Assembly: GCA_963619835.1 (NCBI GenBank)
Contig: CAVEYD010000001.1
Span: 1 to 62,222 of the forward strand
Direction of reading: 5' to 3'
Origin: a bacterium
GTDB taxonomy: Bacteria; Bacillota; Clostridia; Christensenellales; CAG-314
Length of the DNA: 62,222 nt
Shown: one piece after another, positions 5,988 through 30,271 of the stretch
Layout: each line of letters starts with the position of its first letter
Numbering within the stretch: position 1 is the first letter of the stretch
Position numbers and translations under genes: made by a program
The notes under the pieces: generated by a model
What the model was told of the DNA's origin: nothing
The model's input: only the letters and a program-made list of their open reading frames with translations
Databases searched by the model: none

Positions 5988-6863
5988 TTAGTCGGAATTG
6001 ACTTCGAAGAAGACGGACAAATCAAACGTAAACGAAACACCTTGCAACGTTTGGAATTCGTCCAAAGTTGAGATGCCAAAGTTTTTGCCACTTGCCGAGA
6101 TAAGCGTGTTGTACTCGTCGTAAGACAACATTTTGAATTGCAACCAATAGTCTTGAACATTGACTATACGGTTTGATCCGGCTTCGTTTTCCTTTGTTTG
6201 TTCGTCCAAACCGAGAATAACATCATTGTCGATAACGGAAATTTGAGTAAAGCTTGTGTTTCCGTCAGAATCGGCATCGCCTAAACCTTCGTAAAGATAA
6301 CACCACTCTTCCGGTTGCGTAGTTGCCGTATCCGAGCTAAGTCTTGTTTCGTTTTCCACCTTAACGACTCGCATCGCAAACACAGAAAAAAGTTTTGCCT
6401 GTTCTGCCGTAAGGGTTGCGTCCGAAAGACGTATCGCAATGTCGTTTTTTGTGTCCCCCTTGTTGACAAGGCTAATCTTCATAGTGAAAGTTTGCGTAGG
6501 CAAAATAGATGTTAAAAAGTCTGACAAATGTATGCTTTCGATGGTTTGTCCGGCAATATCTGCTTTGGCTTCAGTCATTTTTTTGAAATCGAAATAGCGG
6601 GTTTCCTTGTAATATTCCGGCTTTTCGTGAGTTTCCGGTACTGCTTCGGGCGTGTCAGAGTCGGTAAGCAAATTTGGAACGCCGTTTATACTGGAGTCTT
6701 TTGCAGTGTAAAAGTAAACTTCGGAATTTACTCTTGCAATTTGGAAAGACATTGTGCCGCCCCTATCGGACATACTAAACCATGCATACACATTGACAGT
6801 AAGACAACAAGCTAAAATTACAATCATAACTATTGAACCGATAAGCGAAAATTTAGTTTTCAT
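5988..6863 (-). CDS. Secreted beta-rich protein with a SipW/TasA-type signal peptide (minor fibre/adhesin component candidate)
   Basis: 291 aa. N-terminus has a basic region, a TM segment, then VYAWFSMSD (compare TasA GGGTWAAFND). The body is T/S/D-rich. The start overlaps the upstream stop (TAATG at 6861-6865). Confidence 0.75.
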   Translation of the reverse strand: MKTKFSLIGSIVMIVILACCLTVNVYAWFSMSDRGGTMSFQIARVNSEVYFYTAKDSSINGVPNLLTDSDTPEAVPETHEKPEYYKETRYFDFKKMTEAKADIAGQTIESIHLSDFLTSILPTQTFTMKISLVNKGDTKNDIAIRLSDATLTAEQAKLFSVFAMRVVKVENETRLSSDTATTQPEEWCYLYEGLGDADSDGNTSFTQISVIDNDVILGLDEQTKENEAGSNRIVNVQDYWLQFKMLSYDEYNTLISASGKNFGISTLDEFQTLQGVSFTFDLSVFFEVNSD

Positions 6864-7633
6864 TATTCCGCCTCCTTCGGTGCAAGTACGATGCCATCCA
6901 GGTTTATTGTCTTTTCCGAAAGTGCATTTGTAGCCGCGCCTAAACCTTTGTACTGTGTTAAGTCGACATAAAGTCGAAACGTTACTGACATTGTAGTTTC
7001 CGTCATAGTTCCGCTTGTAATTTCACAAGTGTCCGAAACGGTAGTATCTGCCGAATAGTCAACAATAAATTTGCTGTTTGTTGTGTCTTCGGTTACAGTG
7101 CCATCTTCACTAACAGTACAAGGTACGATTTTGTAAACGCCAAGAACACTGTAAGTTTTTTCGCCTACAGTAAACGAACCTTCTTCATTGTCGTTTTGGC
7201 TGAGTCCGGAAAAATACAAGGTGTAATCCATGCCCTTGTGAGACTCGTCACAAGAGATGGTTAAAGAAATTTCAATAAACTCACCCGGGTAAAGCGAACT
7301 GTAAGAAAGCGGTCTGTAGTTGCCGTCATCGTCCTTAACAAAATCACCGTCACGATACAGATAGTAATTGTTAGAATTTTCAAAACGCTTGTAGTTACCT
7401 TCGGCAATTGTCGTGTGACTCATAACGGCTTTTGCCGTAATTTCGTCTCCGAACAACAAATATTCACGTGCGGCAGAAACTGAGATTCCGCTACCGCCAA
7501 CATCTTTGTTGGATGCAAACCATGCTTTTGTTGAAAACATAGTTATTACAATTGCAACAAACACAAACAACGTAAGTACCATGGAAGTTAGCGATGCAAC
7601 AAATTTTTTGTTTGCAAAAAGCTTTTTAATCAT
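6863..7633 (-). CDS. Secreted beta-rich protein with a SipW/TasA-type signal peptide
   Basis: 256 aa. TM segment followed by TKAWFASNKD. It contains a LYPGEFIEISLTIS segment that I read, from memory only, as TasA-like. ATGA start/stop overlap with the upstream 1098-aa gene at 7630-7633. Confidence 0.75.
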   Translation of the reverse strand: MIKKLFANKKFVASLTSMVLTLFVFVAIVITMFSTKAWFASNKDVGGSGISVSAAREYLLFGDEITAKAVMSHTTIAEGNYKRFENSNNYYLYRDGDFVKDDDGNYRPLSYSSLYPGEFIEISLTISCDESHKGMDYTLYFSGLSQNDNEEGSFTVGEKTYSVLGVYKIVPCTVSEDGTVTEDTTNSKFIVDYSADTTVSDTCEITSGTMTETTMSVTFRLYVDLTQYKGLGAATNALSEKTINLDGIVLAPKEAE

Positions 7634-10600
7634 GCGCTCACCTCCGCTGTGTCAACACGAACAACGGTAAAGTTAACGCGCAAAGTAACATTTGTTCCGC
7701 TTAACGTAAAGTTGTAATCAAGGTAAAAACGTGTTGATGTTGTTGGATCGTCGCCTTCGTAATTCCAAACAATGTTTGCATTTGAAACATATGCCGTATT
7801 ACCGCCGTAAGAATACGACGTGTTTAGCCCAAATATGTCCGGATCGGTTGAATAAGTAGTTGTACCGTCCGACGCCGTAGATGTGCTTGTAACAAACGGC
7901 ATAAAGCAGGTTACTATACTTGTGTTGCCTTTTAATTTCTTTTGATAAGCAATACTTTGCAAACTCTTGTAGTCATTGATACCACTTTGCTTTGTGTACA
8001 AAATTTCGGCAGAATCACTGCGAGTGTTGTAAACAGCAACGCCGGCTTCGGTAAGTTCGGCAAAATATTCCATGTTGACCAGTCCTTCCGAACCATAGAA
8101 CAAACCGTCAATTGTTGACGTATCAAGGTTGTCATAAACGCGAACAACGTTTAAGGAAGTTAGGTCTGTAAGAAAACTAAACGAATAAATATTGTTGTTT
8201 CCAAGGTTGATACTCTTAAGATTTTTAAGCGAGGACAGGTTTTCCAAAACAGAATCTACGGGGCTACTTGTCGATACGTTTACACCCAAACCGCAATTTT
8301 CAAGAATTAAAGTTTCAAGAGCGGACATGGATGCAATAGCCTTTATGTTCGTTTCGTAGTTTGTCCCACTAAGAGTAATTCCCGTAAGATTTAGCAATGT
8401 TGTACCTACAAGATATTTGAGTGCGCTAAAATCATTTACAGATTTTAGCATTTCACCGACTGTGGACGAACCACATGTTGTTGTGTCTTCTACACTTACG
8501 GCAATGCTCGATTTGAGCCAGTCGGTAAGAATTACAGAAGAATCTTCGCTAAATGATTCTCCGCCAAACAACGTACCGATTACCGTGTAAAGATTTTGGT
8601 CGGTAACAACACCGTCAACGGTGTTTTGTTCGGTTGCGGAATATCTTAGTATTCCCGGAATAGTGAAGCTTGTTGTAAGATATTTTGTCTTTTCGTTGTC
8701 CATGTAGGGCGTAAACATTGCATTTGTTGCGATGTGTCGATAGTTGTAAACAAACTCGATATCTTGGTTTTGACTGATTAGATTAGACGTGTCTATTGTG
8801 AATATCCACTTGGAATCGCCGTAAGTTGCAATACTCTTTACAGTAAGATTGTTAGCCGACAAATAACTGTTTAATGCCGGAACGTAAGAAACGTAGCCGT
8901 CATCATTGGTTGTAGGAGTAAGTGCAATTGTGTTTCCGTTGTAGTATAACGAAAGTGTTAGTCCGCTTGCCTGGTTCCAAATTTCATTGCCATCGGCATC
9001 ATAAGAAAGAATGTCGTAACAAACGGCAAAATCGTTGTCGGTTGAACCGCTTGCAAAAGGCATTTCAAAACTTTTTACAGTGTAACCTGCAGTCAATGAG
9101 AAAAACATTTGGTCATAGTAGTTGTAGTAAACAGGAAATTCCGAAATGTTTGTACCGGCAGTCGTTTCGCAACGAATTGGAATTTGTATGCTAACAGCTT
9201 CGTCTTCGCCTAAACCATCAATAACAAATTCACAGTTAAGTTGAACCGTTTGAACGTAGTCGAACGGGTTTTTGCCATCAACAACTTTTACGTAACCACG
9301 GGCATCGGCTGCCGAATCGTGAGTAAATGCTTGATCGCAACCAATAAGTTCGTATAGTCCGTTTGTGTCGTTTACAAGTGAGTATTTTACAGAAATTATT
9401 TTGTTGTTAACGTCGTCAGTAGCGCTGCTGCTTACCGGAGTTTGCAATTCGTAGTTTTTGAACGAAAACGTTCCGTTTTCCTGTTCGTTGGCTTCGACAG
9501 TAATTTGTCCGCCATAGTTAGCAATGGCAAAATCTTGTGCGTAAGATGCATCTGTACGAATAAGTCCGGTGTCGCTTGCGGTAACAGAATAAGCATGTGT
9601 GTCTGTTGAAGTGCCGATACCGATAGTTGCCTTTAACACAACTACTGCAGAAGTAGGCTCAAACACTGTTACATTTTCTTTTACCGTCATTGTGTCGGTA
9701 ACTTCGGACTTCATTGTAGAATCCGAATAGGTGTTGTAAGTAAGAGATATTGTTGTACCATTTGCAACAAATGAGGACGGAAGTTGAATAGAACGTGAAA
9801 TCACGTAAGAATAGGATGTTGTTCCGTCTTCGGCTGTTACAAGTTGATAGTACTTGTACATGTAGGAGTTGAGTAGCGACTTGCTTGCCGACATCAACTG
9901 CGTTTGATCTTGCGGATTTACAATGTGCAAGCAGAAATCCGATGTTCCTATTGTTTCGCTTGCGCCATCGGCAATTTTGCTGACAGTTACAGTTAGCGTT
10001 ACCGTTTGTATTGAGCTTTGCGGTGTTACGTTGCCGCTATTTGACAAAACATCGGCGTTGCTTGACGAATAAGAGATTGTTACGTCATCGTAGCCTTTTA
10101 CGTAAAGAGGTAAATCAAGGTCGCCAAACACAAATGCACATGCTTCCGCCGTGGTAGAATCGCCACTTAAGCAAAATTTTGTTGCAAGAAACAAGTTTGA
10201 ATTGAAAGAAGTTTCGGTAAGTGCCGAAACACTTTCGTAGTTTTGCATTTCGGGAAGAGTGTCGGGGTAGTTGACAACTTTTTTGGCAACAAGTCGAAGT
10301 GCGTTGTAAGCCGTAACAAAATTGTTGTTTGAAACATCCACGCAGTAATCTTCGGCAGTAAGGCTGTCACCTTTTAGGTTTTCAAACGAAACACTTTCTA
10401 AAATGTTTTTAGAATAGGGTGTGTCGTAATAGATTTTGCCAATTTTTGCAACACTACCTTCTGCACTGTCGTCGGCAATTTTTTCGTCAACAATCACTGT
10501 GCCGTTGGACAAAATTGTGTTGCCGTGGTAAGTGTGTGAAAAAGCAAGCTCGTTGCCGTCAAGATACAACTTGTTTCCGTTGAGATTGAGATGAACGTCG

Positions 10601-10926
10601 GAATTAAATTCAATGTCGGCATCCAAAGTGATGTCATTTTGAAAAACAAGTATGTAGCGGTTAGCCGAATCGGAAACACTACTGTTATCGTTGTTGATAC
10701 CGGTAACAACTTGACTTTCGTCAATGGTTGTTGTGCTTGCGCCAACGGAGTATGCCCACAAATCGTCAAAAGATGATACGGCTTTTTCGGTTGCCTTGCC
10801 CGTTACTTGTCCGTTGATGTTTTTAGAAAGTTCGGAGGTAAAATAAGCATAGGCCGAAACAGTCGTTGTTAAAGTGAATGCAACGATAAGAACGATTAAA
10901 ACAATTTTTTTTGAAATTGCTTTCAT
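7630..10926 (-). CDS. Giant secreted protein (1098 aa) with a SipW-type N-terminus and a C-terminal leucine-rich-repeat region
   Basis: N-terminus has a TM segment then AYAYFTSELS. The body is T/S/N/Y-rich. The LRR-like stretch reads LNLTGITLSG...LETLILENCGL...LKNLKSINLGNNNIYSFSFLTDLTSLNVVRVYDN. AAGGAGG RBS. No LPXTG motif and no C-terminal TM segment seen. Confidence 0.85.
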   Translation of the reverse strand: MKAISKKIVLIVLIVAFTLTTTVSAYAYFTSELSKNINGQVTGKATEKAVSSFDDLWAYSVGASTTTIDESQVVTGINNDNSSVSDSANRYILVFQNDITLDADIEFNSDVHLNLNGNKLYLDGNELAFSHTYHGNTILSNGTVIVDEKIADDSAEGSVAKIGKIYYDTPYSKNILESVSFENLKGDSLTAEDYCVDVSNNNFVTAYNALRLVAKKVVNYPDTLPEMQNYESVSALTETSFNSNLFLATKFCLSGDSTTAEACAFVFGDLDLPLYVKGYDDVTISYSSSNADVLSNSGNVTPQSSIQTVTLTVTVSKIADGASETIGTSDFCLHIVNPQDQTQLMSASKSLLNSYMYKYYQLVTAEDGTTSYSYVISRSIQLPSSFVANGTTISLTYNTYSDSTMKSEVTDTMTVKENVTVFEPTSAVVVLKATIGIGTSTDTHAYSVTASDTGLIRTDASYAQDFAIANYGGQITVEANEQENGTFSFKNYELQTPVSSSATDDVNNKIISVKYSLVNDTNGLYELIGCDQAFTHDSAADARGYVKVVDGKNPFDYVQTVQLNCEFVIDGLGEDEAVSIQIPIRCETTAGTNISEFPVYYNYYDQMFFSLTAGYTVKSFEMPFASGSTDNDFAVCYDILSYDADGNEIWNQASGLTLSLYYNGNTIALTPTTNDDGYVSYVPALNSYLSANNLTVKSIATYGDSKWIFTIDTSNLISQNQDIEFVYNYRHIATNAMFTPYMDNEKTKYLTTSFTIPGILRYSATEQNTVDGVVTDQNLYTVIGTLFGGESFSEDSSVILTDWLKSSIAVSVEDTTTCGSSTVGEMLKSVNDFSALKYLVGTTLLNLTGITLSGTNYETNIKAIASMSALETLILENCGLGVNVSTSSPVDSVLENLSSLKNLKSINLGNNNIYSFSFLTDLTSLNVVRVYDNLDTSTIDGLFYGSEGLVNMEYFAELTEAGVAVYNTRSDSAEILYTKQSGINDYKSLQSIAYQKKLKGNTSIVTCFMPFVTSTSTASDGTTTYSTDPDIFGLNTSYSYGGNTAYVSNANIVWNYEGDDPTTSTRFYLDYNFTLSGTNVTLRVNFTVVRVDTAEVSA

Positions 10927-11149: not shown

Positions 11150-14100
11150 CTAAATTGAAACGGTTACAGAGTAGTGACGTTCGTCAAACAAAGTGCCGTC
11201 TTCGTTGATTACGCGAGCAACAAGCTCAACCACTTCGGAGCCACCGGTTCCGCTGTAGTAATTAGAATCTGATGCAACGTAACGAACGTTGATAAACTTG
11301 GAAACCCCGTCCAAAACAAGATTTTGACCGCCTGTTGATTCGTTTACTTCGTCAAACGTGGTTATGATTTTCGGTTTGTCGAATGAAACGTTGCCGAGTC
11401 CGCCCATCGATTTGTAGTAATAAACCCCGGTCGTTGAATTTACTGTAAGTTCAAATAAGCCGTTTGCATAGTACTGAGAGTTCTCCGGAGCATCTAGTCC
11501 GGCTATGTTGACGTACATGATTTTACCTACAGAGTAAGTTCCGCTGACGGAATCCCAAATTGCTTCTTGCACTGCATCGTTGCTTGTTACTGTAACAAAC
11601 TCTTTACGAGCATTCGGCAGGTTGTCATGTTCGAAATAGAACATGCCATCGTCACCTACCAACAAACGATACACATAAGTTTTGGTGTAAGTGTGTCCGT
11701 TGACGGTTTTACTTGTGCCATTGTAGCAATAGTAAGTGCCGTAGTAGTTGCCAAACAAAACGTCTTTTAGGTGAGTGTTTGCTTCAGCCAAAATTGCTTC
11801 CATGTTGAAGTTGCTACTTGCAACAGCAACCGAATATTCGTTTAGCGTGTAGGCTGTGCCTGTAAATTTACGTCTAAAACATTGGTTTTCAACGTAGTAG
11901 TAAGCAAGGGCATTGCCTTCAACGTAATAGGAACCTCTTTGAGTTGAACCTGTGTACATGTAAAGGCTGTAGTTTGAGTCGCTTGCAAGAGTTTCGGCAG
12001 TGCTTAGTGCCGTCTTTATATCATCTGCGGAAGAAAGCACAGTTACGTAATCGTGGTAGTTAGCGGACGAAAAGTCCGAACTTGTTGTTGTGTCTTCTCC
12101 GTCAAAATCAATTTGGCTTGTACTTAAACCATCAAGGTAACTTACTGCCTGTGAATAAACGCTTTCCCATGTTGTGCCGGTGTAAGAACGCGAACCGACT
12201 GTTGCCGTAAATGTGTCGTCAGAATAGAAGTTGCCGTTAGAGTCCATGTTGCTGTAAGTTGGGTAAGACGAACCATTGTAACTAAAAGAAAACGACTCCG
12301 TAATTCTTGTTAAGCTTGTTGATCCCCACCCTCTTGATGTTGAATAGTAGTACGTTTCGTAAGTGCGAGATTGACTTATTTTTATATCTATGTAGTTTGC
12401 AGTGCTGCCTGCTTCGGCCTTTACAAAACGTTTAACTCCGGCACCGTCAATGTAGTACAACACACTTTGAGACTGACTTACAAAATATCTGCAAGTAGAA
12501 GTAGCTGTCATCTTTGTGGTAATTTGGTAAAAAGAATAGATCCTTACTGTATTGTCGCCAATAGTAATATTTCTCCTTCTACTATTACTATAAACTTGTT
12601 TGGATGTTCCGCCTACCTTTGAAGCATTTGTTTCAATATTGTTAGTTGTCATGCTGTAGGACGAGTAATCCGGGGAAGTAATCTCTTGCGATTTTGATTG
12701 AAGTTCGGTTGAGCGATATTCTGCAGTTTGTACGTCGGTCCAATCGATATCGCTTTCGGCCAGGCTTGTGGACGAATTTCCCGCAACGGTGTACGCCTGT
12801 TGAAGGACGTATTGACCACCCGAGTACACCACTTTGTAAACCGTGTTTGCTTTGTAGGTTGTGCCGTTGTAAGAAACGTCTTGCTTAAAAATGTAGTAGT
12901 TGCTTAACAACTTGTTCATTTCGTCGGCAGATGTAATTGACGTGTAGCTATCCGAACCGGCATCGTTTACAATGTAACCGGGGTTGCCACTGTTGACGTA
13001 CCATTGAATATCCTTGGCACCGCTACCGGCATCAACCGAAGTTGTTACAAGCAAGTACTTGCTGTTGACTTCCGTAAGTTCCTTAAGGAAACGAAGTTCG
13101 TCCGAAGTGGATGAGCGAGATGCTGTGTAAGGCGAACGATTGCCGTCATCAGTATAGTAGATTTGTGCGGATGGACTGTTGACCTTGATGTTGTCCAAAA
13201 CATAAGTTAGGTACACACCTTTGACGTTTACATCGGTTACGTCTAAGTAAGAGATTTTTTTGATGTCTACATTAAGAATGTCACCTATTGTAGTTACACC
13301 GGGATTGTAAGAAAAGTCCAATTTGGTAACTTCCGCCAAACGCGAAATGTTGGCAAGATCGAATTTGATGTTGCCTGTTGAGCAAGCTTGCATTACAAAT
13401 TCGTTAAGTTTGTTTCCGCTTGTGCTGTCCGCATCCATTTTGGTAACACGGTTGAAAAAGTTGCCAAGTGAACTTGTGGTTAAAAATGCAGGGTGCTTTA
13501 CTAAACCGTCTTCGCACAATCCGTAAACTCGAATTGCCTTTAGCCCTGTAAAGTAGGTGATACCTGCAGAAGAAAAGTCGAGTGCGGAAATTTCCGGAAC
13601 GTTGTAGTTTGTAAGTGCCGACGAGTAGTTGCCTTCCGACGAACGAAGTTTATTGTAAACTGCGTTAATCAAAATTCCTGCGCCATCGTCGTTTAAGTAA
13701 GTGGGAACAACGCAACTACTTAGAAATGTTTTGGCAAAAGTTTTACCTGCCGAGACGGAAACAGTTCCGTACCAAACAGCGATAATACACTGTGCTTCGT
13801 AATCAGAAATATACTCAGTGTCGTCTTCTTGATAGACTTCTTGTCGGTAATACTTGGAATTTGTGTAATTGGTTGAGGTGGGCGTTGCCCAATTGTCGGG
13901 ATTTGATGACCAGTCAAGCTTGGTGCTTGAATTGTCACTCGAACCATCCATAGCAATGTTGTAAGAACCTATTGCTCCCAAGTCCGGCGGTGATTTGGGA
14001 TACTGGCCTCCGGCATCTTTGAAGTCCTTTTCGTTTGTTGCCCACTGGAAAACTTCGGTGTACTTAAAGTAATTTTCACCAATAGAGTTTGCGGCAGTTA

Positions 14101-16927
14101 CGGCAGCAGTCAAAACTGCTTGATAGTCCGAAATAACGTGCAAGCCGTTGCCATAACTGTCGGTTGGCGTTTCGGTTGCGCTACTCCACAACGCGTTGAG
14201 CTGATCGGCATCGTCAAAGCCTACAACTTCCTTCAGAAATGCCTTGATTACTGCAGCTTCGGTTTCGTTCATGTATTCTTTACCGTCTGCCTTTGCACTA
14301 CTTGTTGATGTGTAAGTTGTACCAAACGAGAAAGGTAAATTGTCTGTGGCCGAGCCCGTTGCCCATGTTAGAAGCATGGCAAGATTGTAAGCGACTTGGT
14401 GCGAATTGCTTGAAGACGAACTTCCGCCTACACTAAACGTTAGAGACTCTACAAGAGCGGCATCACGAACAAGAATGTAGTCTTTTGTTGTGTTGGTAAC
14501 CGTGCTTGTACCTGTGTAGCCTGTTGTTGAATCTGAGCCGTCTACAGTTACGGACGGAAGCAAGCTTACGCGCGAAGCCGTTTCGCTATCGGCAACGTCA
14601 ACTACTTGTTGAGCCGTTTGATACTTGACAGTGTTAAACACACTGTAGTTGGCAAATCCGTTTTCGTCACACTTGATTACGCCCGGAGCATTTACGTACA
14701 GAATACGATAAGCACCTTCGGTTGCATCGCCTTCTGCCAAAGCATGCACTCTAATGGGCAAGCTTGTCTCGTTGTAACCAAACAGTGACGGATCGACATA
14801 AATATGAGTTTTAGATTCGCCGTCGACTGTTTCTACTTGTGCATCGGTGATGGCATTTGTAGCCGATTCACTTGCTTTGTAAGGCTCGTAACTAAGTGCA
14901 ATTGTTTGATAAACGTTGTCTAAGTAGAAATCGCCCGATTCGTACTTGCGACCATAGGTTGCGCGAGTATCAATTAAGTTTTGTAAAATGTCTACTTCGG
15001 ACAACTCCTTTTCAACATAGGTAAAAGCAAGTTCGTACAACTCTTGGTTGTTACCCGGTTTTATGATAACGTTGATTGTTTCTTCAACCGGTTCGGTGTC
15101 GCCCTTAAACAAACCGGAAACGGTAATTTGTGCAAACGTGTAGAACGTTGCTTGATTGAGGAACACACACATTCCGTCTTGATCGCCTGTGTCGTCTACC
15201 GAGATAAAGTTGTAACCACTGTTTACACGATAAGTAAGACTTGTTAAGCCGATATCTTTGTAAGCATCCCATGTGCGTTTTGGCGTAGCATCATCGTTGG
15301 AAATCATTGTGTAATCTGTACGGTAGTCTTGCGTGCCATCGATTGAAGGCAACTTGAAACGCGCCGTAAGATTTGTGGCATCGCTGTTTTTATCAACAAC
15401 CGTAAGGGTGATTGGCGATAATTGTGCAACAAGATACTTGAATTTGATTTCTTTAGATTGACTTGTAACTTTGAATGTAAAGCTTGTTGTGTAAACCTGT
15501 CCGTTTATGGTAATTTTTGCGTAAAGTGTAACTTCAGTGTTTTGCTTTAACGTGTCGGCAAGTTTACCATCTGCAGAAATACTGTTTTCGTCCGAGCTTG
15601 TCCACTCGATGGAAACGTTTTTATCTTCGATTCGCTTAGGTAAAAATACATTGTAAGTGATGGCTTCGGCATTTGAATTGTTGGGAATGTGCTTAAGCTC
15701 GTTTGTAAGCAAACTTGCAAAAATCTCATCGTTGCCATTGCCGATAATTTGAATTTCTTGTACAAAAGAATTGTCGCCTGAGCCGATTTTAACTTGTGCA
15801 ACACTTGTTTTTGAAACAGTGTTTGCAGTAACCATAGCACCGCTTACACTGCACTCGCCTTCAACCGAACTTGTGCCGATTGACGAAGCATAAAAACTAA
15901 GTGCGCCAAAAATATTGAGAGACGATCCGCTTTGTATTCCGCCGATAACATTTTGTGCAATGCGAGTTTTGAGAAGGCCAACTACACTTGCAGAATCGTA
16001 GGAATTTAACGTCACTTTTTCTGCATAAAGACTGCCAACGTTAACAGATTTGTTGCTGTTGTAAAAATCCTCAATATTTAAGTAGGTAGATTCTCCGTTT
16101 AGGACGATGCCGGCAGTACCATCAATTGACGTGTAATTGCAAACACTTGAGGTTGTGATGCCGTACTCACCTTCGCCGCTGAGTGTCAAGTTTGCGTTTA
16201 ACGTAAGCTTGTTTCCGTTTAAGTCGATATTTGCAGGATAAGCAACTTCTTTAGCGGTAGACAAGACAACATCATTTGCCAAAACGATTGTCGTTTTTGC
16301 CGTGCTACTGTTGAGCAAGCCTGTGTTGATATCGTTTATTGCGCTGATTAGTTCGTCTTCGGTTGAAACAAAAATATATTTTACGTAATCGGCATTTTGT
16401 ACGTAAGTGGTAACTTCTACATTAAACGGTGTGTTTGTAAGCGTGCTTGCAATGTGAAGTTCCAAGGACAACGTGTGTGTTGCCGTTGTGCCGCCGTCCT
16501 TTGCCATGGCTTTGTAATCGCCAAAGCTACTGCTTCCGTTTTGCACTTCGGCAAGAGTGCCGATAAATTCTCCGTCAAGATATGCCAGAACAGACGAGGA
16601 CAAATTTTGAAGTTGTTCTTCGGTAAGAGTTGTTGTTGACGACTTTACGACAAGTCCAAAATTGTAAACTATGTTTGCCTTGGTTTTGTTGGTGACAGTA
16701 AGAGTGATGTCTTTCTTTTCGCCTGCAGTAGCAAACGAAACATCGGTTGAGCTGACGTCAAGCGACAAAACACCGCTATCGGTCAACTTGTCTGTGTTTC
16801 CGTCGATGGAAGCATCCGTACGGAATGAGAACAAGACAACGGCAAAAGCCACGCTTGCTGTAAGCGTGATGCACAAAACAATTATTATCGCAATTTTAAG
16901 CGACTTGTTAAGTAGCAAATTCTTCAT
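11150..16927 (-). CDS. Giant secreted protein (1925 aa) with a TasA-like N-terminal module and an internal LRR region
   Basis: N-terminus has a TM segment then AFAVVLFSFRTDAS, followed by a ~170-aa module (GEKKDITLTVTNKTKANIVYNF...). The LRR-like stretch reads LDFSSAGITYFTGLKAIRVYGL...VTKLDFSYNPGVTTIGDILNVDIKKISYLDVTDVNV. AAGGAGA RBS. First gene downstream of the riboswitch at 16958-17060. Confidence 0.85.
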   Translation of the reverse strand: MKNLLLNKSLKIAIIIVLCITLTASVAFAVVLFSFRTDASIDGNTDKLTDSGVLSLDVSSTDVSFATAGEKKDITLTVTNKTKANIVYNFGLVVKSSTTTLTEEQLQNLSSSVLAYLDGEFIGTLAEVQNGSSSFGDYKAMAKDGGTTATHTLSLELHIASTLTNTPFNVEVTTYVQNADYVKYIFVSTEDELISAINDINTGLLNSSTAKTTIVLANDVVLSTAKEVAYPANIDLNGNKLTLNANLTLSGEGEYGITTSSVCNYTSIDGTAGIVLNGESTYLNIEDFYNSNKSVNVGSLYAEKVTLNSYDSASVVGLLKTRIAQNVIGGIQSGSSLNIFGALSFYASSIGTSSVEGECSVSGAMVTANTVSKTSVAQVKIGSGDNSFVQEIQIIGNGNDEIFASLLTNELKHIPNNSNAEAITYNVFLPKRIEDKNVSIEWTSSDENSISADGKLADTLKQNTEVTLYAKITINGQVYTTSFTFKVTSQSKEIKFKYLVAQLSPITLTVVDKNSDATNLTARFKLPSIDGTQDYRTDYTMISNDDATPKRTWDAYKDIGLTSLTYRVNSGYNFISVDDTGDQDGMCVFLNQATFYTFAQITVSGLFKGDTEPVEETINVIIKPGNNQELYELAFTYVEKELSEVDILQNLIDTRATYGRKYESGDFYLDNVYQTIALSYEPYKASESATNAITDAQVETVDGESKTHIYVDPSLFGYNETSLPIRVHALAEGDATEGAYRILYVNAPGVIKCDENGFANYSVFNTVKYQTAQQVVDVADSETASRVSLLPSVTVDGSDSTTGYTGTSTVTNTTKDYILVRDAALVESLTFSVGGSSSSSNSHQVAYNLAMLLTWATGSATDNLPFSFGTTYTSTSSAKADGKEYMNETEAAVIKAFLKEVVGFDDADQLNALWSSATETPTDSYGNGLHVISDYQAVLTAAVTAANSIGENYFKYTEVFQWATNEKDFKDAGGQYPKSPPDLGAIGSYNIAMDGSSDNSSTKLDWSSNPDNWATPTSTNYTNSKYYRQEVYQEDDTEYISDYEAQCIIAVWYGTVSVSAGKTFAKTFLSSCVVPTYLNDDGAGILINAVYNKLRSSEGNYSSALTNYNVPEISALDFSSAGITYFTGLKAIRVYGLCEDGLVKHPAFLTTSSLGNFFNRVTKMDADSTSGNKLNEFVMQACSTGNIKFDLANISRLAEVTKLDFSYNPGVTTIGDILNVDIKKISYLDVTDVNVKGVYLTYVLDNIKVNSPSAQIYYTDDGNRSPYTASRSSTSDELRFLKELTEVNSKYLLVTTSVDAGSGAKDIQWYVNSGNPGYIVNDAGSDSYTSITSADEMNKLLSNYYIFKQDVSYNGTTYKANTVYKVVYSGGQYVLQQAYTVAGNSSTSLAESDIDWTDVQTAEYRSTELQSKSQEITSPDYSSYSMTTNNIETNASKVGGTSKQVYSNSRRRNITIGDNTVRIYSFYQITTKMTATSTCRYFVSQSQSVLYYIDGAGVKRFVKAEAGSTANYIDIKISQSRTYETYYYSTSRGWGSTSLTRITESFSFSYNGSSYPTYSNMDSNGNFYSDDTFTATVGSRSYTGTTWESVYSQAVSYLDGLSTSQIDFDGEDTTTSSDFSSANYHDYVTVLSSADDIKTALSTAETLASDSNYSLYMYTGSTQRGSYYVEGNALAYYYVENQCFRRKFTGTAYTLNEYSVAVASSNFNMEAILAEANTHLKDVLFGNYYGTYYCYNGTSKTVNGHTYTKTYVYRLLVGDDGMFYFEHDNLPNARKEFVTVTSNDAVQEAIWDSVSGTYSVGKIMYVNIAGLDAPENSQYYANGLFELTVNSTTGVYYYKSMGGLGNVSFDKPKIITTFDEVNESTGGQNLVLDGVSKFINVRYVASDSNYYSGTGGSEVVELVARVINEDGTLFDERHYSVTVSI

Positions 16928-16957
16928 TGCCGTCTCCTTGAAAAAATCTTGTTAGAA

Positions 16958-17060
16958 TAAAAAATGCCAGACTCCCTTTGAATTGAGGTAATCCGGCAAC
17001 TGGCTGACTCGTAGGAGAGTCCCTATAGCTTTGCGTAATAGCCTTGCGACTATTTTGCTA
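16958..17060 (-). promoter_or_regulatory. c-di-GMP-I (GEMM-I)-like riboswitch candidate R1 in the 5' leader of the giant-adhesin operon
   Basis: Minus-strand read: UAGCAAAAUAGUC-GCAA-GGCUAUU-ACGCAAAGCUAUAGGGACUC-UCCUAC-GAGUCAGCCAGUUGCCGG. It has a 7-bp hairpin capped by a GNRA loop, plus the ACGCAAAGC and CAGCC.GUUGCC blocks that are hallmarks of GEMM-I. GGGAGUCUGGC plus U6 (16959-16976) follows and can pair with the aptamer GCCAG / GACUC segments. The fold of this expression platform is unresolved. Confidence 0.7.
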
Positions 17061-17104
17061 TTATCAAATTAACTTTGACACTATATTTATTTAATTCTTA
17101 ATAT

Positions 17105-28436: not shown

Positions 28437-29231
28437 CTAATTTTGTTCGGTTGCTTCAACCACGTTGAACAACATGTCAAGTTTAAGTTGACCGCCCAAA
28501 ATGTCGTCGGTGCAATCCGGATCGTCACCTTCGAGCCAAATTACAACAGTGATTTTGGCAATGTCGCCGGGGGCAAAGTCCTTTACGATGCTTTGCGTAA
28601 CGGTTGCGTTGCTGGCAAAGTTGGTCATTACACGAGTTGGGTTGCCGTCTTCGTCCGAGTCAATTTCCGGATCGCCGTTGCCACCTGTTTTTGCCTTGGC
28701 AAAATCGGTGTACGAACCATCGGTTGTGATAACATCGGTTGCCGACTTGTAGTAGTCTTTGTTGTAGTACAAGCGGACACGTGCTGCATTTTCAATTCCC
28801 AAAGTTGCCGACGTTACAATTAAATCGTACTTGTACGAACATGTTGTTGTGCCGGTGTTTTTGAGAAAGAACGTGTAAGCAACGTAATTTTCGCCGTTGT
28901 GCTCGCCACCCTCGTCGTTGAGACTGACGGGCAAGGTTGTGCCGCTTATGTTTGTTATGGACTTGACGGCTTTAGAGTTGAGCCGTGAAGTTTGTTGAGT
29001 GAACGTGTCACTTTCCGACAGCGCAAGAGAGTAGTTTTGATTGTTGACGTCGGTTACGCTTACAGTGAAACTGCCGTAACGATTGAACAATACCGAGCAA
29101 ACATAGGCAATTAAAAGCAACGCTACAATTATGCCAATTGCTATTGGAATAATTTTGCGGAGCGCACGCTGTGTTGCTATGCTACCGGATGCCCTTGCGA
29201 GCGTAGATGATGGTTTTTTTTCGTTGAGCAT
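28437..29231 (-). CDS. Membrane-anchored or secreted beta-rich protein, TasA-like features
   Basis: 264 aa. N-terminal TM segment (IIPIAIGIIVALLLIAYVCSVLF) followed by NRYGSFTVSV. Contains YVAYTFFLKNTGTTTCSYKY and a C-terminal ITVVIWLEGDDPDC block resembling the C-termini of the other SipW-type proteins here. AAGAGG RBS. The start lies 3 nt after the stop of the degenerate-EAL gene. Confidence 0.75.
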   Translation of the reverse strand: MLNEKKPSSTLARASGSIATQRALRKIIPIAIGIIVALLLIAYVCSVLFNRYGSFTVSVTDVNNQNYSLALSESDTFTQQTSRLNSKAVKSITNISGTTLPVSLNDEGGEHNGENYVAYTFFLKNTGTTTCSYKYDLIVTSATLGIENAARVRLYYNKDYYKSATDVITTDGSYTDFAKAKTGGNGDPEIDSDEDGNPTRVMTNFASNATVTQSIVKDFAPGDIAKITVVIWLEGDDPDCTDDILGGQLKLDMLFNVVEATEQN

Positions 29232-29234
29232 TTA

Positions 29235-30008
29235 CTATACCTCTTGGATGCCCAAGACTTGCGCAGGGGTTTGCTCGTCTGTTGACGGCAGACTTCCAAC
29301 AAAATCTTGCGAAGGAACAACACCTACACAACTTGTGCTACGAAGCTTTTGCAAGTCCGCATCGTTTTGGACTTGGCTTGCTACCACTTGGCAACCAAGC
29401 CCGTTTGCAAACGTCAACAACGCGTTGAGCACCGAAAGACCATCGGTTTTTTGCAAGTAGCTTGTAAGCTCCGGCGCAAAAAGAATATCGGGCGTTAAGC
29501 TTGCAAGTGCTGTCATGGGGAACAATTTTGTTCCAAAACCTTCGACGGCAACTTTTAACCCTATTGCGCGTGTGGATGCAATTAGCTTTGTGTACTTTTC
29601 GGTCGCAAACAACAGTTCTTGCGGAAAAACAAAACAAAGTGTTTTTGCAAGCTTAGATTGACGTTCGACAATGGCATCGACACGATTGATAAAATCGGGA
29701 CGTTCGAGCACACACAACGGACAATCCATTGCAATGAAGTTGAACGATTTGCCTTGATCAAGCAAGATTTGTGCCATCTTTGCGCCTTTTGTTAAAAGTA
29801 CAAAGAAAAGTTCGGCTTGCATCTCGTCGGAAACGGCAGAAAAACTTTCCTGCGACAAACTTCCAAACAAAATGCTGTTTACTGTGCCGCGTTGGTAGTA
29901 CCCTACGATTTCATCGCCGTACAAATTCCACACGGGAGTAAATTTTACTTGAATGGGGGCAACTCCGCTTTCAAGCGTGCGTTGCACATAGCTGTTTAGT
30001 TGCGACAT
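29235..30008 (-). CDS. Stand-alone degenerate EAL-domain protein (predicted catalytically inactive; possible c-di-GMP receptor)
   Basis: About 257 aa from the ATG at 30008 (GAGGAGAGAG RBS; the ORF-track N-terminal extension to 30206 would run through the riboswitch). It is collinear with the EAL domain, but every catalytic position I checked by eye is substituted: GYYQR for E-A-L-R, FIAMDCP for NxS, VFPQE for E-x-T-E, VAVEGFGT for DDFGTG, ILFAPE for KxD, VVASQVQ for AEGVE, and VVPSQDF for QGY. Confidence 0.7.
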   Translation of the reverse strand: MSQLNSYVQRTLESGVAPIQVKFTPVWNLYGDEIVGYYQRGTVNSILFGSLSQESFSAVSDEMQAELFFVLLTKGAKMAQILLDQGKSFNFIAMDCPLCVLERPDFINRVDAIVERQSKLAKTLCFVFPQELLFATEKYTKLIASTRAIGLKVAVEGFGTKLFPMTALASLTPDILFAPELTSYLQKTDGLSVLNALLTFANGLGCQVVASQVQNDADLQKLRSTSCVGVVPSQDFVGSLPSTDEQTPAQVLGIQEV

Positions 30009-30046
30009 GGTACACTCTCTCCTCGTACACCGTGATTTAGGCAAAT

Positions 30047-30101
30047 AAAAAAGTTGCAACTTAAATGTACCCTGTACAAAAAATTGCAACTCGGCTGACT
30101 T
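30047..30101 (-). promoter_or_regulatory. Second copy of the R2 3' half plus a second terminator-like hairpin
   Basis: The 22-nt segment aaaattgcaactcggctgactt occurs twice (30080-30101 and 30151-30172, period 71). The second GUUGCAAU pairs with GUUGCAAC (30053-30060, one G.U pair), followed by U6 (30047-30052). Confidence 0.6.
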
Positions 30102-30113
30102 ACCAAAGACAAT

Positions 30114-30220
30114 AAAAAAAGTTGCAATCATACGCATCACTAATGTGATGAAAATTGCAACTCGGCTGACTTGTGAAGTCCCTATGGTTTTGCGTCGCCG
30201 CCTCACGACGGTTTTGCTAA
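30114..30220 (-). promoter_or_regulatory. c-di-GMP-I (GEMM-I)-like riboswitch candidate R2 with an intrinsic terminator
   Basis: Minus-strand read: UAGCAAAACCGUC-GUGA-GGCGG-CGACGCAAAACCAUAGGGACUUCACAAGUCAGCCGAGUUGCAAU. It has a GNRA-capped hairpin plus the ACGCAAA and CAGCC.GUUGC blocks, and aligns nearly position for position with R1. The aptamer 3' end GUUGCAAU (30154-30161) pairs with AUUGCAAC (30121-30128), followed by U7 (30114-30120). Confidence 0.75.
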
Positions 30221-30241
30221 ATATTTACCTTTTGTGCTACT

Positions 30242-30271
30242 ACTATACCACAAGGCTTTGCCGAATGTCAA
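30242..30271 (-). promoter_or_regulatory. Sigma-A-type promoter driving R2 and the degenerate-EAL operon
   Basis: Minus strand: TTGACA (30266-30271), 18-nt spacer ending in TGg (extended -10), then TATAGT (30242-30247). The aptamer starts about 20 nt downstream. Confidence 0.65.

What the first reader, a model, noticed from the sequence alone, without database searches (positions are those of the whole stretch)
5988..30271. A ~24-kb, single-strand, c-di-GMP-wired SipW-type secretion/fibre locus far larger than any tapA-sipW-tasA operon
Thirteen consecutive minus-strand genes form what looks like one functional island. Reading 5' to 3', the order is as follows. First a promoter plus GEMM-I-like riboswitch R2, a degenerate EAL protein, and a TM beta-rich protein. 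Then a promoter with a long leader, a TasA-like protein, a hairpin, sipW paralogue 2, the membrane AAA+ ATPase, the 1171-aa protein, sipW paralogue 1, the GGDEF*-EAL phosphodiesterase and a terminator. Finally a promoter plus riboswitch R1, the 1925-aa and 1098-aa giants, and the 256-aa and 291-aa proteins. At least five, probably six, products carry the TM segment plus aromatic-A-x-F-S/T N-terminus that defines SipW substrates (TasA has GTWAAFND). Characterised SipW systems (B. subtilis tapA-sipW-tasA, B. cereus sipW-tasA-calY) have one peptidase and two small substrates. I know of no characterised SipW system with two peptidases, two giant LRR cargoes, an AAA+ motor-like pair and dedicated second-messenger wiring.
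Basis: partly seen in the sequence, partly recalled or inferred. Interest (0 to 1): 0.8.

Follow-up and report, generated by a model that had tools for sequence, protein, structure and literature searches.

The report
c-di-GMP-switched pilus locus with McrBC-like GTPase
An uncultured gut Clostridia bacterium carries a conserved gene cluster, switched on by the signal molecule c-di-GMP, that most likely builds TasA-like surface fibres carrying giant adhesins; the cluster embeds a nuclease-free relative of the McrBC restriction GTPase, a combination named "CoCoPALM" in 2024 but never characterised.

Summary
On the minus strand of 5988-30271 lie 12 genes (not 13) and two c-di-GMP-I riboswitches that pass Rfam thresholds. 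Each riboswitch has a sigma-70-like promoter upstream and a terminator overlapping its 3' end.

- **Conserved core.** Eight genes form the core: degenerate EAL, membrane-anchored TasA-like paralogue, hypervariable TasA-like major subunit, SipW-2, membrane AAA+, 1171-aa protein, SipW-1, GGDEF*-EAL. This order recurs in about 80 species-level genomes of uncultured gut and rumen Clostridia. A riboswitch precedes the core in 37 of 39 testable loci.
- **The "AAA+ motor pair".** It is a McrB-like GTPase plus a DUF2357 (McrC N-terminal) protein with no detectable nuclease. This matches "CoCoPALM", which Bell et al. (eLife 2024) named in one paragraph and left for a later paper.
- **The N-termini.** They do not score with the SipW-cognate signal model TIGR04088. 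They form their own conserved class, small-x-small followed by W-[FLI], with the same -3/-1/+2 pattern as TasA. Four window proteins carry it clearly.
- **The giants.** They are variable accessory cargo, and LRR support is weak.

Best reading: a c-di-GMP-induced, SipW-processed, donor-strand fibre and adhesin system. The role of the GTPase is unknown. Interest is moderate to high.

The parts
30242..30271 (-). Sigma-70-like promoter of the core operon (TTGACA-18-TATAGT with extended -10 TG)
   Evidence: 11 of 12 matches, located 14 nt upstream of riboswitch R2.
30153..30228 (-). c-di-GMP-I riboswitch R2 (aptamer)
   Evidence: RF01051, 41.9 bits against gathering score 35; own covariance model, 79 bits. 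An orthologous riboswitch lies upstream of the EAL gene in 37/39 loci.
30044..30163 (-). Expression platform: two tandem intrinsic terminators. The first overlaps the aptamer 3' strand. The second is preceded by a duplicated copy of the aptamer 3' segment AAGUCAGCCGAGUUGCAAUUUU.
   Evidence: hairpin dG -15.8 plus a U7 run, with the 5' arm starting 9 nt inside the aptamer. This points to a predicted ON switch.
29235..30008 (-). Stand-alone degenerate EAL protein (257 aa), a candidate c-di-GMP receptor
   Evidence: Pfam EAL 6.8e-20. The sequence shows the catalytic motifs replaced: DDFG to EGFG, KxD to FAP, EGVE to SQVQ, N to D. Conserved first gene of the operon.
28437..29231 (-). 264-aa type-II membrane protein with a beta-rich ectodomain. 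It is a distant paralogue of the TasA-like subunit without a cleavage motif; candidate fibre base or anchor.
   Evidence: hhalign against the TasA-like family gives probability 93.7%, E 2e-7 over 136 columns, with a shared W/Y-x-EG-x-D-x-x-C motif. Identity among orthologues is 40-58%. Present in 42/48 loci.
27055..27957 (-). TasA-like major fibre subunit (300 aa): signal helix, T-Y-A|W-F site, conserved N-terminal strand, beta-sandwich body
   Evidence: A27, W28 and F29 are invariant. The N-terminus TFAWFSMNxxVxATGMxVTAK is conserved while the rest is about 25% identical. AF2 pLDDT 89.4; highest-probability Foldseek hits are the TasA fibre 8aur (0.85), the archaeal thread 7pnb (0.84) and ABP pili 7ueg (0.38), but none has E<=1e-3.
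27186..27802 (-). Hypervariable central cassette of the major subunit gene
   Evidence: a second assembly of the same species is 99.4% and 97.2% identical in nucleotides on the two flanks, but these 617 nt do not align. Protein identity is only about 50%.
26971..26994 (-). Hairpin CGCGGGGAGA-AUUU-UCUCCCUGCG between the subunit gene and sipW-2, with no U-run
   Evidence: A role as attenuator or mRNA stabiliser is inferred only.
25982..26932 (-). SipW paralogue 2 (316 aa), with an inserted segment and a long conserved cytoplasmic tail
   Evidence: NF046067 at 4.1e-11; TIGR02228 at 25 bits, below cut-off; the Ser (NSM), His-Arg and GD motifs are >=95% conserved in 62 orthologues.
24144..25715 (-). 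Membrane-anchored McrB-like AAA+ GTPase (523 aa): amphipathic N-terminus, transmembrane segment, coiled coil, AAA_5-type domain
   Evidence: PDB McrB 6hz4 at 1.1e-4. NCBIfam McrB at 2.7e-5. PADLOC PDC-M26A at 4e-35. Walker A GISGTGKTS, Walker B ILDEMN and NNDD are invariant; more than 8000 homologues. It is the most conserved gene of the locus, at 60-81% identity.
23809..24143 (-). AT-rich 335-nt spacer with about five TTGTAAAA-type repeats and no ORF
   Evidence: Function unknown. In relatives this spacer is 30-150 nt.
20293..23808 (-). McrC-like partner (1171 aa): basic repeat domain, coiled coil, DUF2357 core, two further repeat domains that form a perfect 588-nt tandem duplication, disordered tail with a basic amphipathic end. 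No nuclease detected.
   Evidence: DUF2357 at 27.7 bits against cut-off 23.3; relatives are annotated as DUF2357; the duplication; repeat domain pI 8.6-10, with 1-7 copies in orthologues; no nuclease or other fold found.
19579..20286 (-). SipW paralogue 1 (235 aa), archaeal/ER-type signal peptidase I
   Evidence: TIGR02228 at 79.1 bits against cut-off 51.85; NF046067 at 4.4e-25; the GSM, HR and GD motifs are conserved in 51 orthologues.
17281..19569 (-). Membrane GGDEF*-EAL protein (762 aa), a predicted active c-di-GMP phosphodiesterase with an extracytoplasmic sensor domain
   Evidence: EAL at 8.8e-57; GGDEF at only 16.7 bits. The sequence keeps the EIL, N, ExTE, DDFGTGYSS, KLD, EGVE and QG motifs. 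Present in 46/49 loci.
17224..17258 (-). Intrinsic terminator ending the core operon (AAAACCGC...GCGGUUUU)
   Evidence: Read directly from the sequence.
17105..17133 (-). Sigma-70-like promoter of the accessory adhesin operon
   Evidence: TTGACA-17-CATAAT, 11 of 12 matches.
16955..17069 (-). c-di-GMP-I riboswitch R1 (aptamer 16992-17069) with an overlapping terminator
   Evidence: 57.1 bits; hairpin dG -15.7 plus a U6 run, with the 5' arm 6 nt inside the aptamer.
11150..16927 (-). 1925-aa giant surface protein (aBig_2 domain) with an N-terminal signal of the variant A-F-A|VVLF type
   Evidence: aBig_2 at 1.4e-9; orthologues carry A-A-A|VVLF; orthologues in L050, L054, L077 and L080 have their own c-di-GMP riboswitch.
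7630..10926 (-). 1098-aa giant surface protein (aBig_2, weak LRR) with an A-Y-A|Y-F-T class signal
   Evidence: the L012 orthologue (37% identity) has the same YAYF N-terminus and the same gene order, giant then p256 then p291.
6863..7633 (-). 256-aa minor-subunit-like protein (T-K-A|W-F-A-S-N-K-D-V-G-G-S-G-I-S-V)
   Evidence: hhalign to the major-subunit N-terminus, E 6.9e-5; 18.9 bits against the N-terminus HMM.
5988..6863 (-). 291-aa minor-subunit-like protein (V-Y-A|W-F-S-M)
   Evidence: hhalign E 3.8e-6; 22.7 bits.

Best explanation
The locus encodes a c-di-GMP-induced surface-fibre and adhesin system of the CoCoPALM type.

Shown by computation:
- Two c-di-GMP-I riboswitches control two transcription units. 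Their terminators compete with the aptamer 3' strand, so c-di-GMP binding should allow read-through (ON switches).
- The core unit encodes eight proteins: a degenerate EAL protein, a membrane-anchored TasA-like paralogue, a TasA-like major subunit, two archaeal/ER-type signal peptidases, a membrane-anchored McrB-like GTPase, its DUF2357 (McrC-like) nuclease-free partner, and an active-looking EAL phosphodiesterase.

Inferred:
- Subunits, minor subunits and giant adhesins are exported by Sec. The SipW paralogues cleave them after the small-x-small site, just before the invariant Trp.
- The freed, highly conserved N-terminal strand (WFSMNxxVxATGMxVxA) then inserts into the beta-sandwich of the next subunit, as in TasA fibres, archaeal threads and bundling pili.
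- Giants and minor subunits join the fibre through the same N-terminal module. The uncleaved 264-aa paralogue anchors or nucleates the fibre at the membrane.
- The McrB-like hexamer and its McrC-like activator sit on the cytoplasmic face of the membrane. Through coiled coils and the long cytoplasmic tails of the peptidases, they organise or gate processing and assembly, possibly in response to c-di-GMP bound by the degenerate EAL protein.
- The EAL phosphodiesterase provides negative feedback.

The role of the GTPase is the least supported step.
For: Regulation:
- Rfam hits above threshold with promoters adjacent.
- All 35 riboswitches tested, in the window and relatives, have a terminator (dG -9.6 to -30.6) plus a U-run whose 5' arm starts 6-16 nt inside the aptamer. 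Arm sequences co-vary between loci.
- A riboswitch lies upstream of the core in 37/39 loci, and also upstream of sipW-2 (6 loci), G1925-like giants (4) and minor-subunit plus giant operons (about 10).

Peptidases: TIGR02228 passed by SipW-1; catalytic Ser, His and Asp motifs conserved in both paralogues.

Subunit:
- The AF2 model has pLDDT 89.4, with the conserved 25 residues after the signal helix left unstructured.
- The top-probability Foldseek hits are three donor-strand filaments: TasA 8aur, thread 7pnb and ABP 7ueg.
- T25, A27, W28 and F29 are invariant or nearly so, mirroring the T-W-A|A-F site of TasA, and hhalign aligns the two in register.
- The N-terminal HMM finds about 35 further proteins in related loci, including giants of 838-2667 aa.
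- A hypervariable central cassette between strains is typical of an exposed filament subunit.
- The 264-aa protein is a paralogue of the subunit body.

McrBC-like pair. It is always adjacent (66/66), is the most conserved gene of the locus, and has no nuclease. The published CoCoPALM description matches.
Against: - No N-terminus scores with TIGR04088.
- There is no sequence-level similarity to TasA, camelysin or BsaA.
- Foldseek E-values are only about 1e-2, with TM-scores of 0.29-0.36.
- The DUF2357 assignment rests on one Pfam hit of 27.7 bits. The AF2 model of that region did not retrieve McrC from the PDB.
- TasA-type fibres need no cytoplasmic NTPase, so the role proposed for the GTPase has no precedent.
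- Nothing here shows expression, cleavage, or that a filament exists.
- All carriers are uncultured.
Confidence: 0.6

Rival explanations
1. The McrB-like/McrC-like module is an anti-phage, abortive-infection-type defence system attached to a pilus that serves as a phage receptor. It senses infection through the pilus machinery rather than helping to build it.
For: The pair descends from McrBC restriction systems. Both proteins hit PADLOC candidate-defence models: PDC-M26A at 4e-35 and PDC-S18 at 2.6e-13. The sister CoCoNuT systems are predicted defence systems. The major subunit is hypervariable, as expected under phage or immune pressure.
Against: No nuclease or other effector domain was found. 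The GTPase is the most conserved gene of the locus (60-81% identity) and sits in fixed synteny in about 80 species, unlike patchy defence islands. The repeat domain has no phage homologue. The operon is under c-di-GMP control, not stress control.
Confidence: 0.12
2. The system moves nucleic acid. A membrane-anchored McrB-like translocase, with a basic, possibly nucleic-acid-binding McrC-like partner, imports or exports DNA along a TasA-like pilus, in a competence-like, eDNA-release or conjugation-like process.
For: McrB-family motors translocate DNA (PMC7680126, listed). The McrC-like protein carries 1-7 copies of a basic domain of pI 8.6-10 with unknown fold. The GTPase is membrane-anchored.
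Against: No membrane channel (ComEC, FtsK or VirB-like), relaxase or recognised DNA-binding domain occurs in the window locus or in the relatives inspected. The repeat domain matches nothing known. This is pure inference from charge.
Confidence: 0.08
3. This is an ordinary TasA/SipW biofilm-matrix operon that merely sits next to unrelated genes (McrBC-like pair, EAL proteins, large surface proteins). There is no single functional island.
For: The giants are not always adjacent, and in some relatives they are on the opposite strand or absent. There are separate promoters and a terminator between the two units.
Against: The McrBC-like pair lies between the two sipW genes in essentially every genome (66/66 and 57/60). 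EAL genes flank the core in most loci. The same riboswitch class controls both the core and the accessory operons. Accessory giants carry the same class-specific N-terminus.
Confidence: 0.05

Closest known systems
[quoted passage not shown]
   Same: Both have a McrB-like GTPase with an N-terminal transmembrane plus coiled-coil extension, a DUF2357/McrC homologue with a coiled coil, and tight association with signal-peptidase-family genes. The NNDD signature is compatible with the 'NxD followed by D/E' clade.
   Different: The paper gives one paragraph and defers analysis to a later publication. In the text I could read it does not describe TasA-like subunits, the class-specific signal, giant adhesins, EAL proteins, c-di-GMP riboswitches or the basic repeat domain. 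I could not place this GTPase in their tree.
B. subtilis tapA-sipW-tasA and B. cereus sipW-tasA-calY fibres
   Same: Both have an archaeal/ER-type signal peptidase encoded next to its substrates. The cleavage site has Thr at -3, an aromatic at -2, Ala at -1 and Phe at +2. The subunit is a beta-sandwich with an N-terminal strand, and the Foldseek top-probability hit is TasA fibre 8aur.
   Different: This locus has two peptidases and no TapA. It shows no detectable sequence homology to TasA or Peptidase_M73, and TIGR04088 is not matched. It adds giant cargo, an embedded McrBC-like GTPase pair, and riboswitch and EAL regulation in place of SinR/SinI.
C. perfringens sipW-bsaA-bsaB-bsaC matrix operon (PMC7395162)
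   Same: It is a clostridial SipW system with several substrates that forms a polymer.
   Different: The BsaA family model TIGR04090 is not matched by any window protein. That system has no McrBC-like pair and no c-di-GMP riboswitch; it is regulated by temperature and a two-component system.
Archaeal TasA-superfamily filaments: S. acidocaldarius threads (7pnb), P. calidifontis bundling pili (7ueg), cannulae
   Same: All are donor-strand-complemented beta-sandwich subunits processed by signal peptidase I. They appear among the top structural hits.
   Different: They are archaeal and have no GTPase module. The similarity is weak (TM 0.23-0.38).
McrBC type IV restriction enzyme
   Same: Both have an AAA_5-type GTPase with Walker A, Walker B and N..D motifs, and a partner with a DUF2357 domain.
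   Different: The N-terminal DNA-reader domain is replaced by a membrane anchor and coiled coil. No PD-(D/E)xK nuclease is present. The context is chromosomal, vertically conserved and non-defence.
C. difficile c-di-GMP riboswitch-controlled pili and adhesins (pilA1, CD2831) and Pseudomonas LapD/LapG/LapA
   Same: In both, high c-di-GMP turns on surface adhesion. Degenerate EAL/GGDEF proteins act as receptors that control proteolytic handling of a giant adhesin.
   Different: The pilus class differs (type IV or sortase-dependent in those systems). LapG is a periplasmic cysteine protease. The analogy here is functional only.

Membership tests
CoCoPALM (Bell et al. 2024) | McrB-like AAA+ GTPase domain | tested here: met
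   PDB McrB 6hz4 at 1.1e-4 over residues 226-431. NCBIfam McrB at 2.7e-5. AAA_5 weak. Walker A and B invariant.
CoCoPALM (Bell et al. 2024) | NxD variant of the NxxD signature, usually followed by D or E | tested here: inconclusive
   The invariant motif is I-N-N-D-D-S. It can be read as NxD plus D. However, the gapless pairwise alignment to E. coli McrB puts NNDD opposite NTAD, which would be NxxD. Placement in the published tree is needed.
CoCoPALM (Bell et al. 2024) | GTPase fused to an FtsB-like transmembrane plus coiled-coil N-terminus | tested here: inconclusive
   A 29-residue hydrophobic segment followed by a heptad-rich charged helix is visible in the sequence. No Pfam FtsB/DivIC hit even at E<=10.
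CoCoPALM (Bell et al. 2024) | McrC homologue (DUF2357) with coiled coil, encoded next to the GTPase | tested here: met
   DUF2357 at 27.7 bits against cut-off 23.3. Relatives are annotated as DUF2357. Adjacent in 66/66 loci. An E/K/Q-rich coiled-coil segment spans aa 180-260. Foldseek did not recover McrC.
CoCoPALM (Bell et al. 2024) | Association with signal-peptidase-family genes | tested here: met
   Two SipW-like genes flank the pair: 67/71 upstream and 57/60 downstream in relatives.
TasA/SipW fibre systems | Archaeal/ER-type signal peptidase I (TIGR02228) | tested here: met
   SipW-1 scores 79.1 bits against cut-off 51.85. SipW-2 scores 25.1 bits (below), but its Ser, His-Arg and GD motifs are conserved.
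TasA/SipW fibre systems | Orthology to Bacillus SipW (NF046067 equivalog, cut-off 190) | tested here: not met
   88.3 and 42.8 bits.
TasA/SipW fibre systems | Substrates carry the SipW-dependent signal peptide (TIGR04088, cut-off 19) | tested here: not met
   The TasA control scores 40.3 bits. None of six window N-termini is reported even at E<=10. The reverse HMM scores TasA at 3.2 bits. hhalign aligns the sites in register, but at E 0.12.
TasA/SipW fibre systems | Subunit belongs to the TasA/camelysin (Peptidase_M73, NF046066) or BsaA (TIGR04090) family by sequence | tested here: not met
   No Pfam, NCBIfam or PDB-profile hit.
TasA/SipW fibre systems | TasA-like beta-sandwich fold with an N-terminal donor strand | tested here: inconclusive
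   AF2 pLDDT 89.4. Foldseek: 8aur at probability 0.85, E 1.3e-2, TM 0.29/0.36; 7pnb at probability 0.84; 7ueg at 0.38; no hit at E<=1e-3. Oligomer modelling was not possible.
c-di-GMP-I riboswitch (RF01051) | Aptamer sequence and structure above the Rfam gathering score | tested here: met
   57.1 and 41.9 bits against 35. 66 hits in related loci with my own covariance model.
c-di-GMP-I riboswitch (RF01051) | Ligand binding and genetic switching | not testable with these tools
   Only the architecture can be seen: in 35/35 cases a terminator overlaps the aptamer 3' end.
McrBC type IV restriction | PD-(D/E)xK nuclease in the McrC subunit and a DNA-reader domain in McrB | tested here: not met
   No nuclease or reader domain found by Pfam, NCBIfam, PDB profile or Foldseek. 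The McrB N-terminus is a membrane anchor.
EAL phosphodiesterase | Catalytic motifs E(A/I)L, N, ExTE, DDFG, KxD, EGVE, QG | tested here: met
   The 762-aa protein keeps all motifs, and its EAL scores 192.6 bits. The 257-aa protein has most of them replaced and is therefore degenerate.

The most novel reading that the evidence does not exclude
A McrBC-derived, nuclease-free GTPase complex anchored in the membrane is an obligatory cytoplasmic engine or gate for assembling a donor-strand (TasA-superfamily) pilus that carries giant adhesins. This would be a new, NTP-dependent class of Gram-positive pilus machinery, exapted from a restriction enzyme and wired to c-di-GMP through riboswitches and a degenerate EAL receptor.
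Probability: 0.3. Interest if true: 0.85.

Novelty: new member of a known kind. Interest (0 to 1): 0.62.

Why it matters
- **Where it occurs.** The system is present in dozens of species of uncultured gut and rumen Clostridia, with Christensenellaceae- and Catabacter-labelled MAGs among them. The GTPase alone has more than 8000 90%-identity clusters in public metagenomes. It is therefore probably a major but undescribed surface organelle of abundant commensals.
- **An exaptation.** It shows a restriction-enzyme motor (McrBC) that has lost its nuclease and DNA reader and become fixed inside a pilus operon.
- **A defined starting point for experiments.** CoCoPALM now has candidate subunits, a predicted cleavage site, a predicted inducing ligand (c-di-GMP), a hypervariable antigenic cassette and modular giant adhesins. 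Each of these can be tested directly.
- **A gap in annotation.** The current SipW-cognate signal model misses this whole class of substrates.

Tried and rejected
- **Sequence searches with no result.** The TasA-like, 264-aa, 256-aa and 291-aa proteins gave nothing in Pfam or NCBIfam. PDB profile searches with alignments of the TasA-like family, the 264-aa family, the DUF2357 core and the basic repeat domain gave nothing or only low-complexity hits.
- **Structure search.** Foldseek of the AF2 model of the DUF2357 core gave no meaningful match.
- **Repeat domain.** It has no phage homologue by tblastn and no Pfam hit.
- **Other pilus classes rejected.** Type IV pilins are excluded because the conserved motif lies after, not before, the hydrophobic helix. 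Sortase pili are excluded because no LPXTG or C-terminal anchor is present in any cargo.
- **Leader upstream of the subunit gene.** Its 479 nt match no Rfam family even at E<=1.
- **A 13th gene.** None found in the 336-nt spacer.
- **Look-up of the 542-aa ORF.** It failed because the real start is the internal ATG, giving 523 aa.
- **Supplements of the eLife paper.** The files held here contain nothing on CoCoPALM.
- **Later literature.** No later paper mentions CoCoPALM. None links SipW with c-di-GMP riboswitches in this way.

Full report
**What is there.** The minus strand of 5988-30271 carries 12 long ORFs and two c-di-GMP-I riboswitch aptamers above Rfam's gathering score: 16992-17069 at 57.1 bits and 30153-30228 at 41.9 bits, against a threshold of 35. 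A near-consensus sigma-70 promoter sits immediately 5' of each. The first unit runs from 30271 to 17224. It encodes, in order:
- a stand-alone EAL protein whose catalytic motifs are replaced (EAL 6.8e-20);
- a 264-aa type-II membrane protein;
- a 300-aa secreted protein;
- SipW paralogue 2;
- a 523-aa membrane AAA+ protein, whose real start at 25715 was confirmed by an exact database match;
- a 1171-aa protein;
- SipW paralogue 1;
- a 762-aa membrane protein with a degenerate GGDEF and an intact EAL (192.6 bits).

A terminator follows. The second unit runs from 17133 to 5988. It encodes giants of 1925 and 1098 aa, each with an aBig_2 domain, and proteins of 256 and 291 aa. I find 12 genes, not 13.

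**Source and distribution.** The AAA+ protein is identical to one in NCBI MAG GCA_963643805.1. It has more than 8000 homologous 90%-identity clusters, the best 120 at 68-81% identity. A scan of one genome per GTDB species found 90 loci; the 80 kept are almost all labelled as uncultured Clostridia, Christensenellaceae, Catabacter or Oscillospiraceae MAGs from human gut, rumen or horse faeces. With the window proteins as tblastn queries, I counted only loci that held enough flanking DNA:

| Neighbour of the AAA+ gene | Loci |
|---|---|
| 1171-aa homologue directly downstream | 66/66 |
| SipW upstream | 67/71 |
| SipW downstream | 57/60 |
| GGDEF*-EAL gene | 46/49 |
| 264-aa gene | 42/48 |
| TasA-like gene | 39/48 |
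| Degenerate EAL gene | 35/47 |

The giants are accessory. Homologous or analogous giant and minor genes appear upstream, inside the core, or on the opposite strand in different species.

**The AAA+ pair.** The AAA+ domain matches McrB: PDB 6hz4 at 1.1e-4, NCBIfam McrB at 2.7e-5, and PADLOC PDC-M26A at 4e-35. Its N-terminus is an amphipathic segment, a hydrophobic segment of about 29 residues and a charged helical region. Walker A, Walker B and an I-N-N-D-D-S motif are invariant.

The central 360 residues of the 1171-aa protein hit Pfam DUF2357, the McrC N-terminal domain, at 27.7 bits against a cut-off of 23.3. Relatives are annotated as DUF2357 proteins. No nuclease or other known domain was found by Pfam, NCBIfam, PDB profile or Foldseek on an AF2 model of pLDDT 80.

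Flanking the core are copies of a basic domain (pI 8.6-10) of unknown fold. Orthologues carry 1-7 copies, and the domain occurs nowhere else in these loci. Two of the window's three copies form a perfect 588-nt tandem duplication.

Bell, Makarova, Wolf and Koonin (eLife 2024, PMC11090510) describe exactly this combination. [quoted passage not shown] They name it CoCoPALM and defer it to a future paper. I found no later mention.

**The putative fibre proteins.** Orthologues of the 300-aa protein are only about 25% identical overall. They share a nearly fixed N-terminus: a signal helix, then T-[FY]-A-W-F-S-M-N-x-x-V-x-A-T-G-M-x-V-x-A, with A27, W28 and F29 invariant.

An AF2 model (97-sequence alignment, pLDDT 89.4) is a beta-sandwich. 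The conserved post-signal segment is left unstructured in the monomer. Foldseek finds nothing at E<=1e-3. The three matches with the highest probability among the filament hits are all donor-strand filaments: TasA fibre 8aur (0.85), S. acidocaldarius thread 7pnb (0.84) and P. calidifontis bundling pilus 7ueg (0.38). TM-scores are 0.23-0.38.

At sequence level there is no link to TasA, camelysin or BsaA. The TIGR04088 SipW-cognate model scores a TasA control at 40 bits but none of the window N-termini. An HMM of the new N-terminus scores TasA at 3.2 bits. Even so, hhalign puts TSTYAWFSM in register with GGTWAAFND. The -3 Thr, -1 Ala and +2 Phe match the TasA cleavage site. From memory, mature TasA starts at AFND.

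The same N-terminal HMM finds p256 (18.9 bits), p291 (22.7 bits) and about 35 further proteins in related loci, from about 270-aa minor proteins to giants of 838-2667 aa. All of them have small-x-small followed by W-[FLI]. G1098 has A-Y-A|Y-F-T. G1925 and its orthologues have a different conserved A-x-A|VVLF site.

The 264-aa membrane protein lacks the site. Its ectodomain is nevertheless a distant paralogue of the subunit body (hhalign probability 93.7%, E 2e-7).

A second assembly of the same species is 97-99% identical in nucleotides on both flanks, yet 617 nt in the middle of the subunit gene do not align at all. Some species carry two or three tandem subunit genes. These are the hallmarks of an exposed, diversifying filament subunit.

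**Peptidases.** SipW-1 passes TIGR02228. SipW-2 does not (25 bits), because of insertions. Both keep the Ser, His-Arg and Gly-Asp motifs at >=95% across 51 and 62 orthologues respectively. Both also have unusually long, charged cytoplasmic tails after their C-terminal membrane helix.

**Regulation.** A covariance model built from 12 aptamers found 66 riboswitches in 76 sources. One lies directly upstream of the degenerate-EAL gene in 37 of 39 loci. Others precede sipW-2 (6 loci), G1925-like giants (4) and minor-subunit plus giant operons (about 10).

In all 35 cases examined, the aptamer is followed by a hairpin (dG -9.6 to -30.6 kcal/mol) and a U-run. The hairpin's 5' arm begins 6-16 nt inside the aptamer's 3' strand, and the arm sequences co-vary between species. 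Aptamer and terminator are therefore mutually exclusive, which predicts that c-di-GMP binding permits read-through. The operon itself encodes an active-looking phosphodiesterase, giving possible negative feedback, and a degenerate EAL protein that may be a receptor.

**Mechanism proposed.**
- Computed: ON-type c-di-GMP riboswitches, two SPase I paralogues, a TasA-like fold, a shared N-terminal module, and a nuclease-free McrBC-like pair in fixed synteny.
- Inferred: Sec export; cleavage before the invariant Trp; polymerisation by donor-strand complementation; incorporation of minor subunits and giant adhesins through the same strand; anchoring by the uncleaved paralogue; a membrane-associated GTPase platform that organises or gates processing and assembly.

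The GTPase step has no precedent and is the weakest. Three rivals remain possible but less likely: a defence module coupled to a phage-receptor pilus, DNA transport, and mere adjacency. The reasons are given under each rival.

**Novelty.** By every criterion I could test, the locus is a member of CoCoPALM, a class that has been named but not analysed. It works like a TasA/SipW fibre system, but it fails sequence-level membership of the TasA and TIGR04088 families. The following appear undescribed in the literature I could search:
- the TasA-like subunit family and its class-specific signal;
- the anchored paralogue;
- the modular giant cargo;
- the hypervariable cassette;
- the near-universal c-di-GMP riboswitch and EAL wiring.

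Noticed in passing
window 30044-30163 (-): The R2 leader has two tandem terminators. The second is preceded by an exact 22-nt duplicate of the aptamer's 3' segment (AAGUCAGCCGAGUUGCAAUUUU). The aptamer 5' half could therefore in principle pair with either copy, which might give a two-step or tandem switch.
   Followed up: partly
window 20753-21928 (-), inside the 1171-aa gene: There is a perfect 588-nt tandem duplication, equal to one basic repeat domain of 196 aa. It is either a very recent duplication or an assembly artefact. Orthologues carry 1-7 copies of this domain.
   Followed up: partly
window 23809-24143: An AT-rich 335-nt spacer lies between the GTPase gene and its partner. It carries about five TTGTAAAA-type repeats (TRF periods 14 and 29), whereas relatives have only 30-150 nt here. 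It could be an internal promoter or a regulator-binding array.
   Followed up: no
window 27186-27802 versus L001 7988-8562: Two assemblies of the same species differ by complete replacement of the central part of the major-subunit gene, while the flanks are 97-99% identical. Loci L042 and L039 carry three and two tandem subunit genes. This suggests cassette-type antigenic variation.
   Followed up: partly
L044, L048, L054, L076, L080 (between sipW-1 and the GGDEF*-EAL gene): A conserved small ORF of about 74-81 aa (MFRKIKLKKQIRRCLREI...DDDVDYFNRYTAEI), coiled-coil-like, is present in one sub-clade. It was not seen in the window.
   Followed up: no
L002, L007, L010, L012, L019, L026 downstream of the core: Many relatives continue with a conserved gene for a protein of about 650 aa (Pfam labels on L002: GGDEF, Response_reg, HD_5/HD), then a solute-binding protein and a histidine kinase. 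This is a further layer of c-di-GMP signalling that the window lacks; here the giant-adhesin operon sits in that position.
   Followed up: no
L077 (CAVDSZ010000016.1): The record is titled Akkermansia muciniphila, but the locus is near-identical in organisation to the Clostridia MAG loci L050, L054 and L080. This is probably a binning or contamination error in the public record.
   Followed up: no
L083 and L084: Distant versions (GTPase 47-50% identical) have short McrC-like partners of about 365 aa without repeat domains, a single SipW, and in L083 two GTPase/partner pairs. These help to define a minimal system.
   Followed up: partly
window 27055-27957 and A3 alignment: A conserved acidic motif Y-x-Y-F-E-G-E-D-A-N-C lies near the C-terminus of the subunit, and W-L-E-G-N-D-P-D-C in the anchored paralogue. 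It recalls the Ca2+-dependent assembly reported for archaeal cannulae and AbpX, so it may be a metal site.
   Followed up: no
window 49817-58517 (-): There are two further large predicted surface proteins (1814 and 1050 aa) with ordinary Sec or lipoprotein-type signals, next to an ABC sugar-transport cluster. They lack the class-specific N-terminus and seem unrelated to the locus.
   Followed up: no
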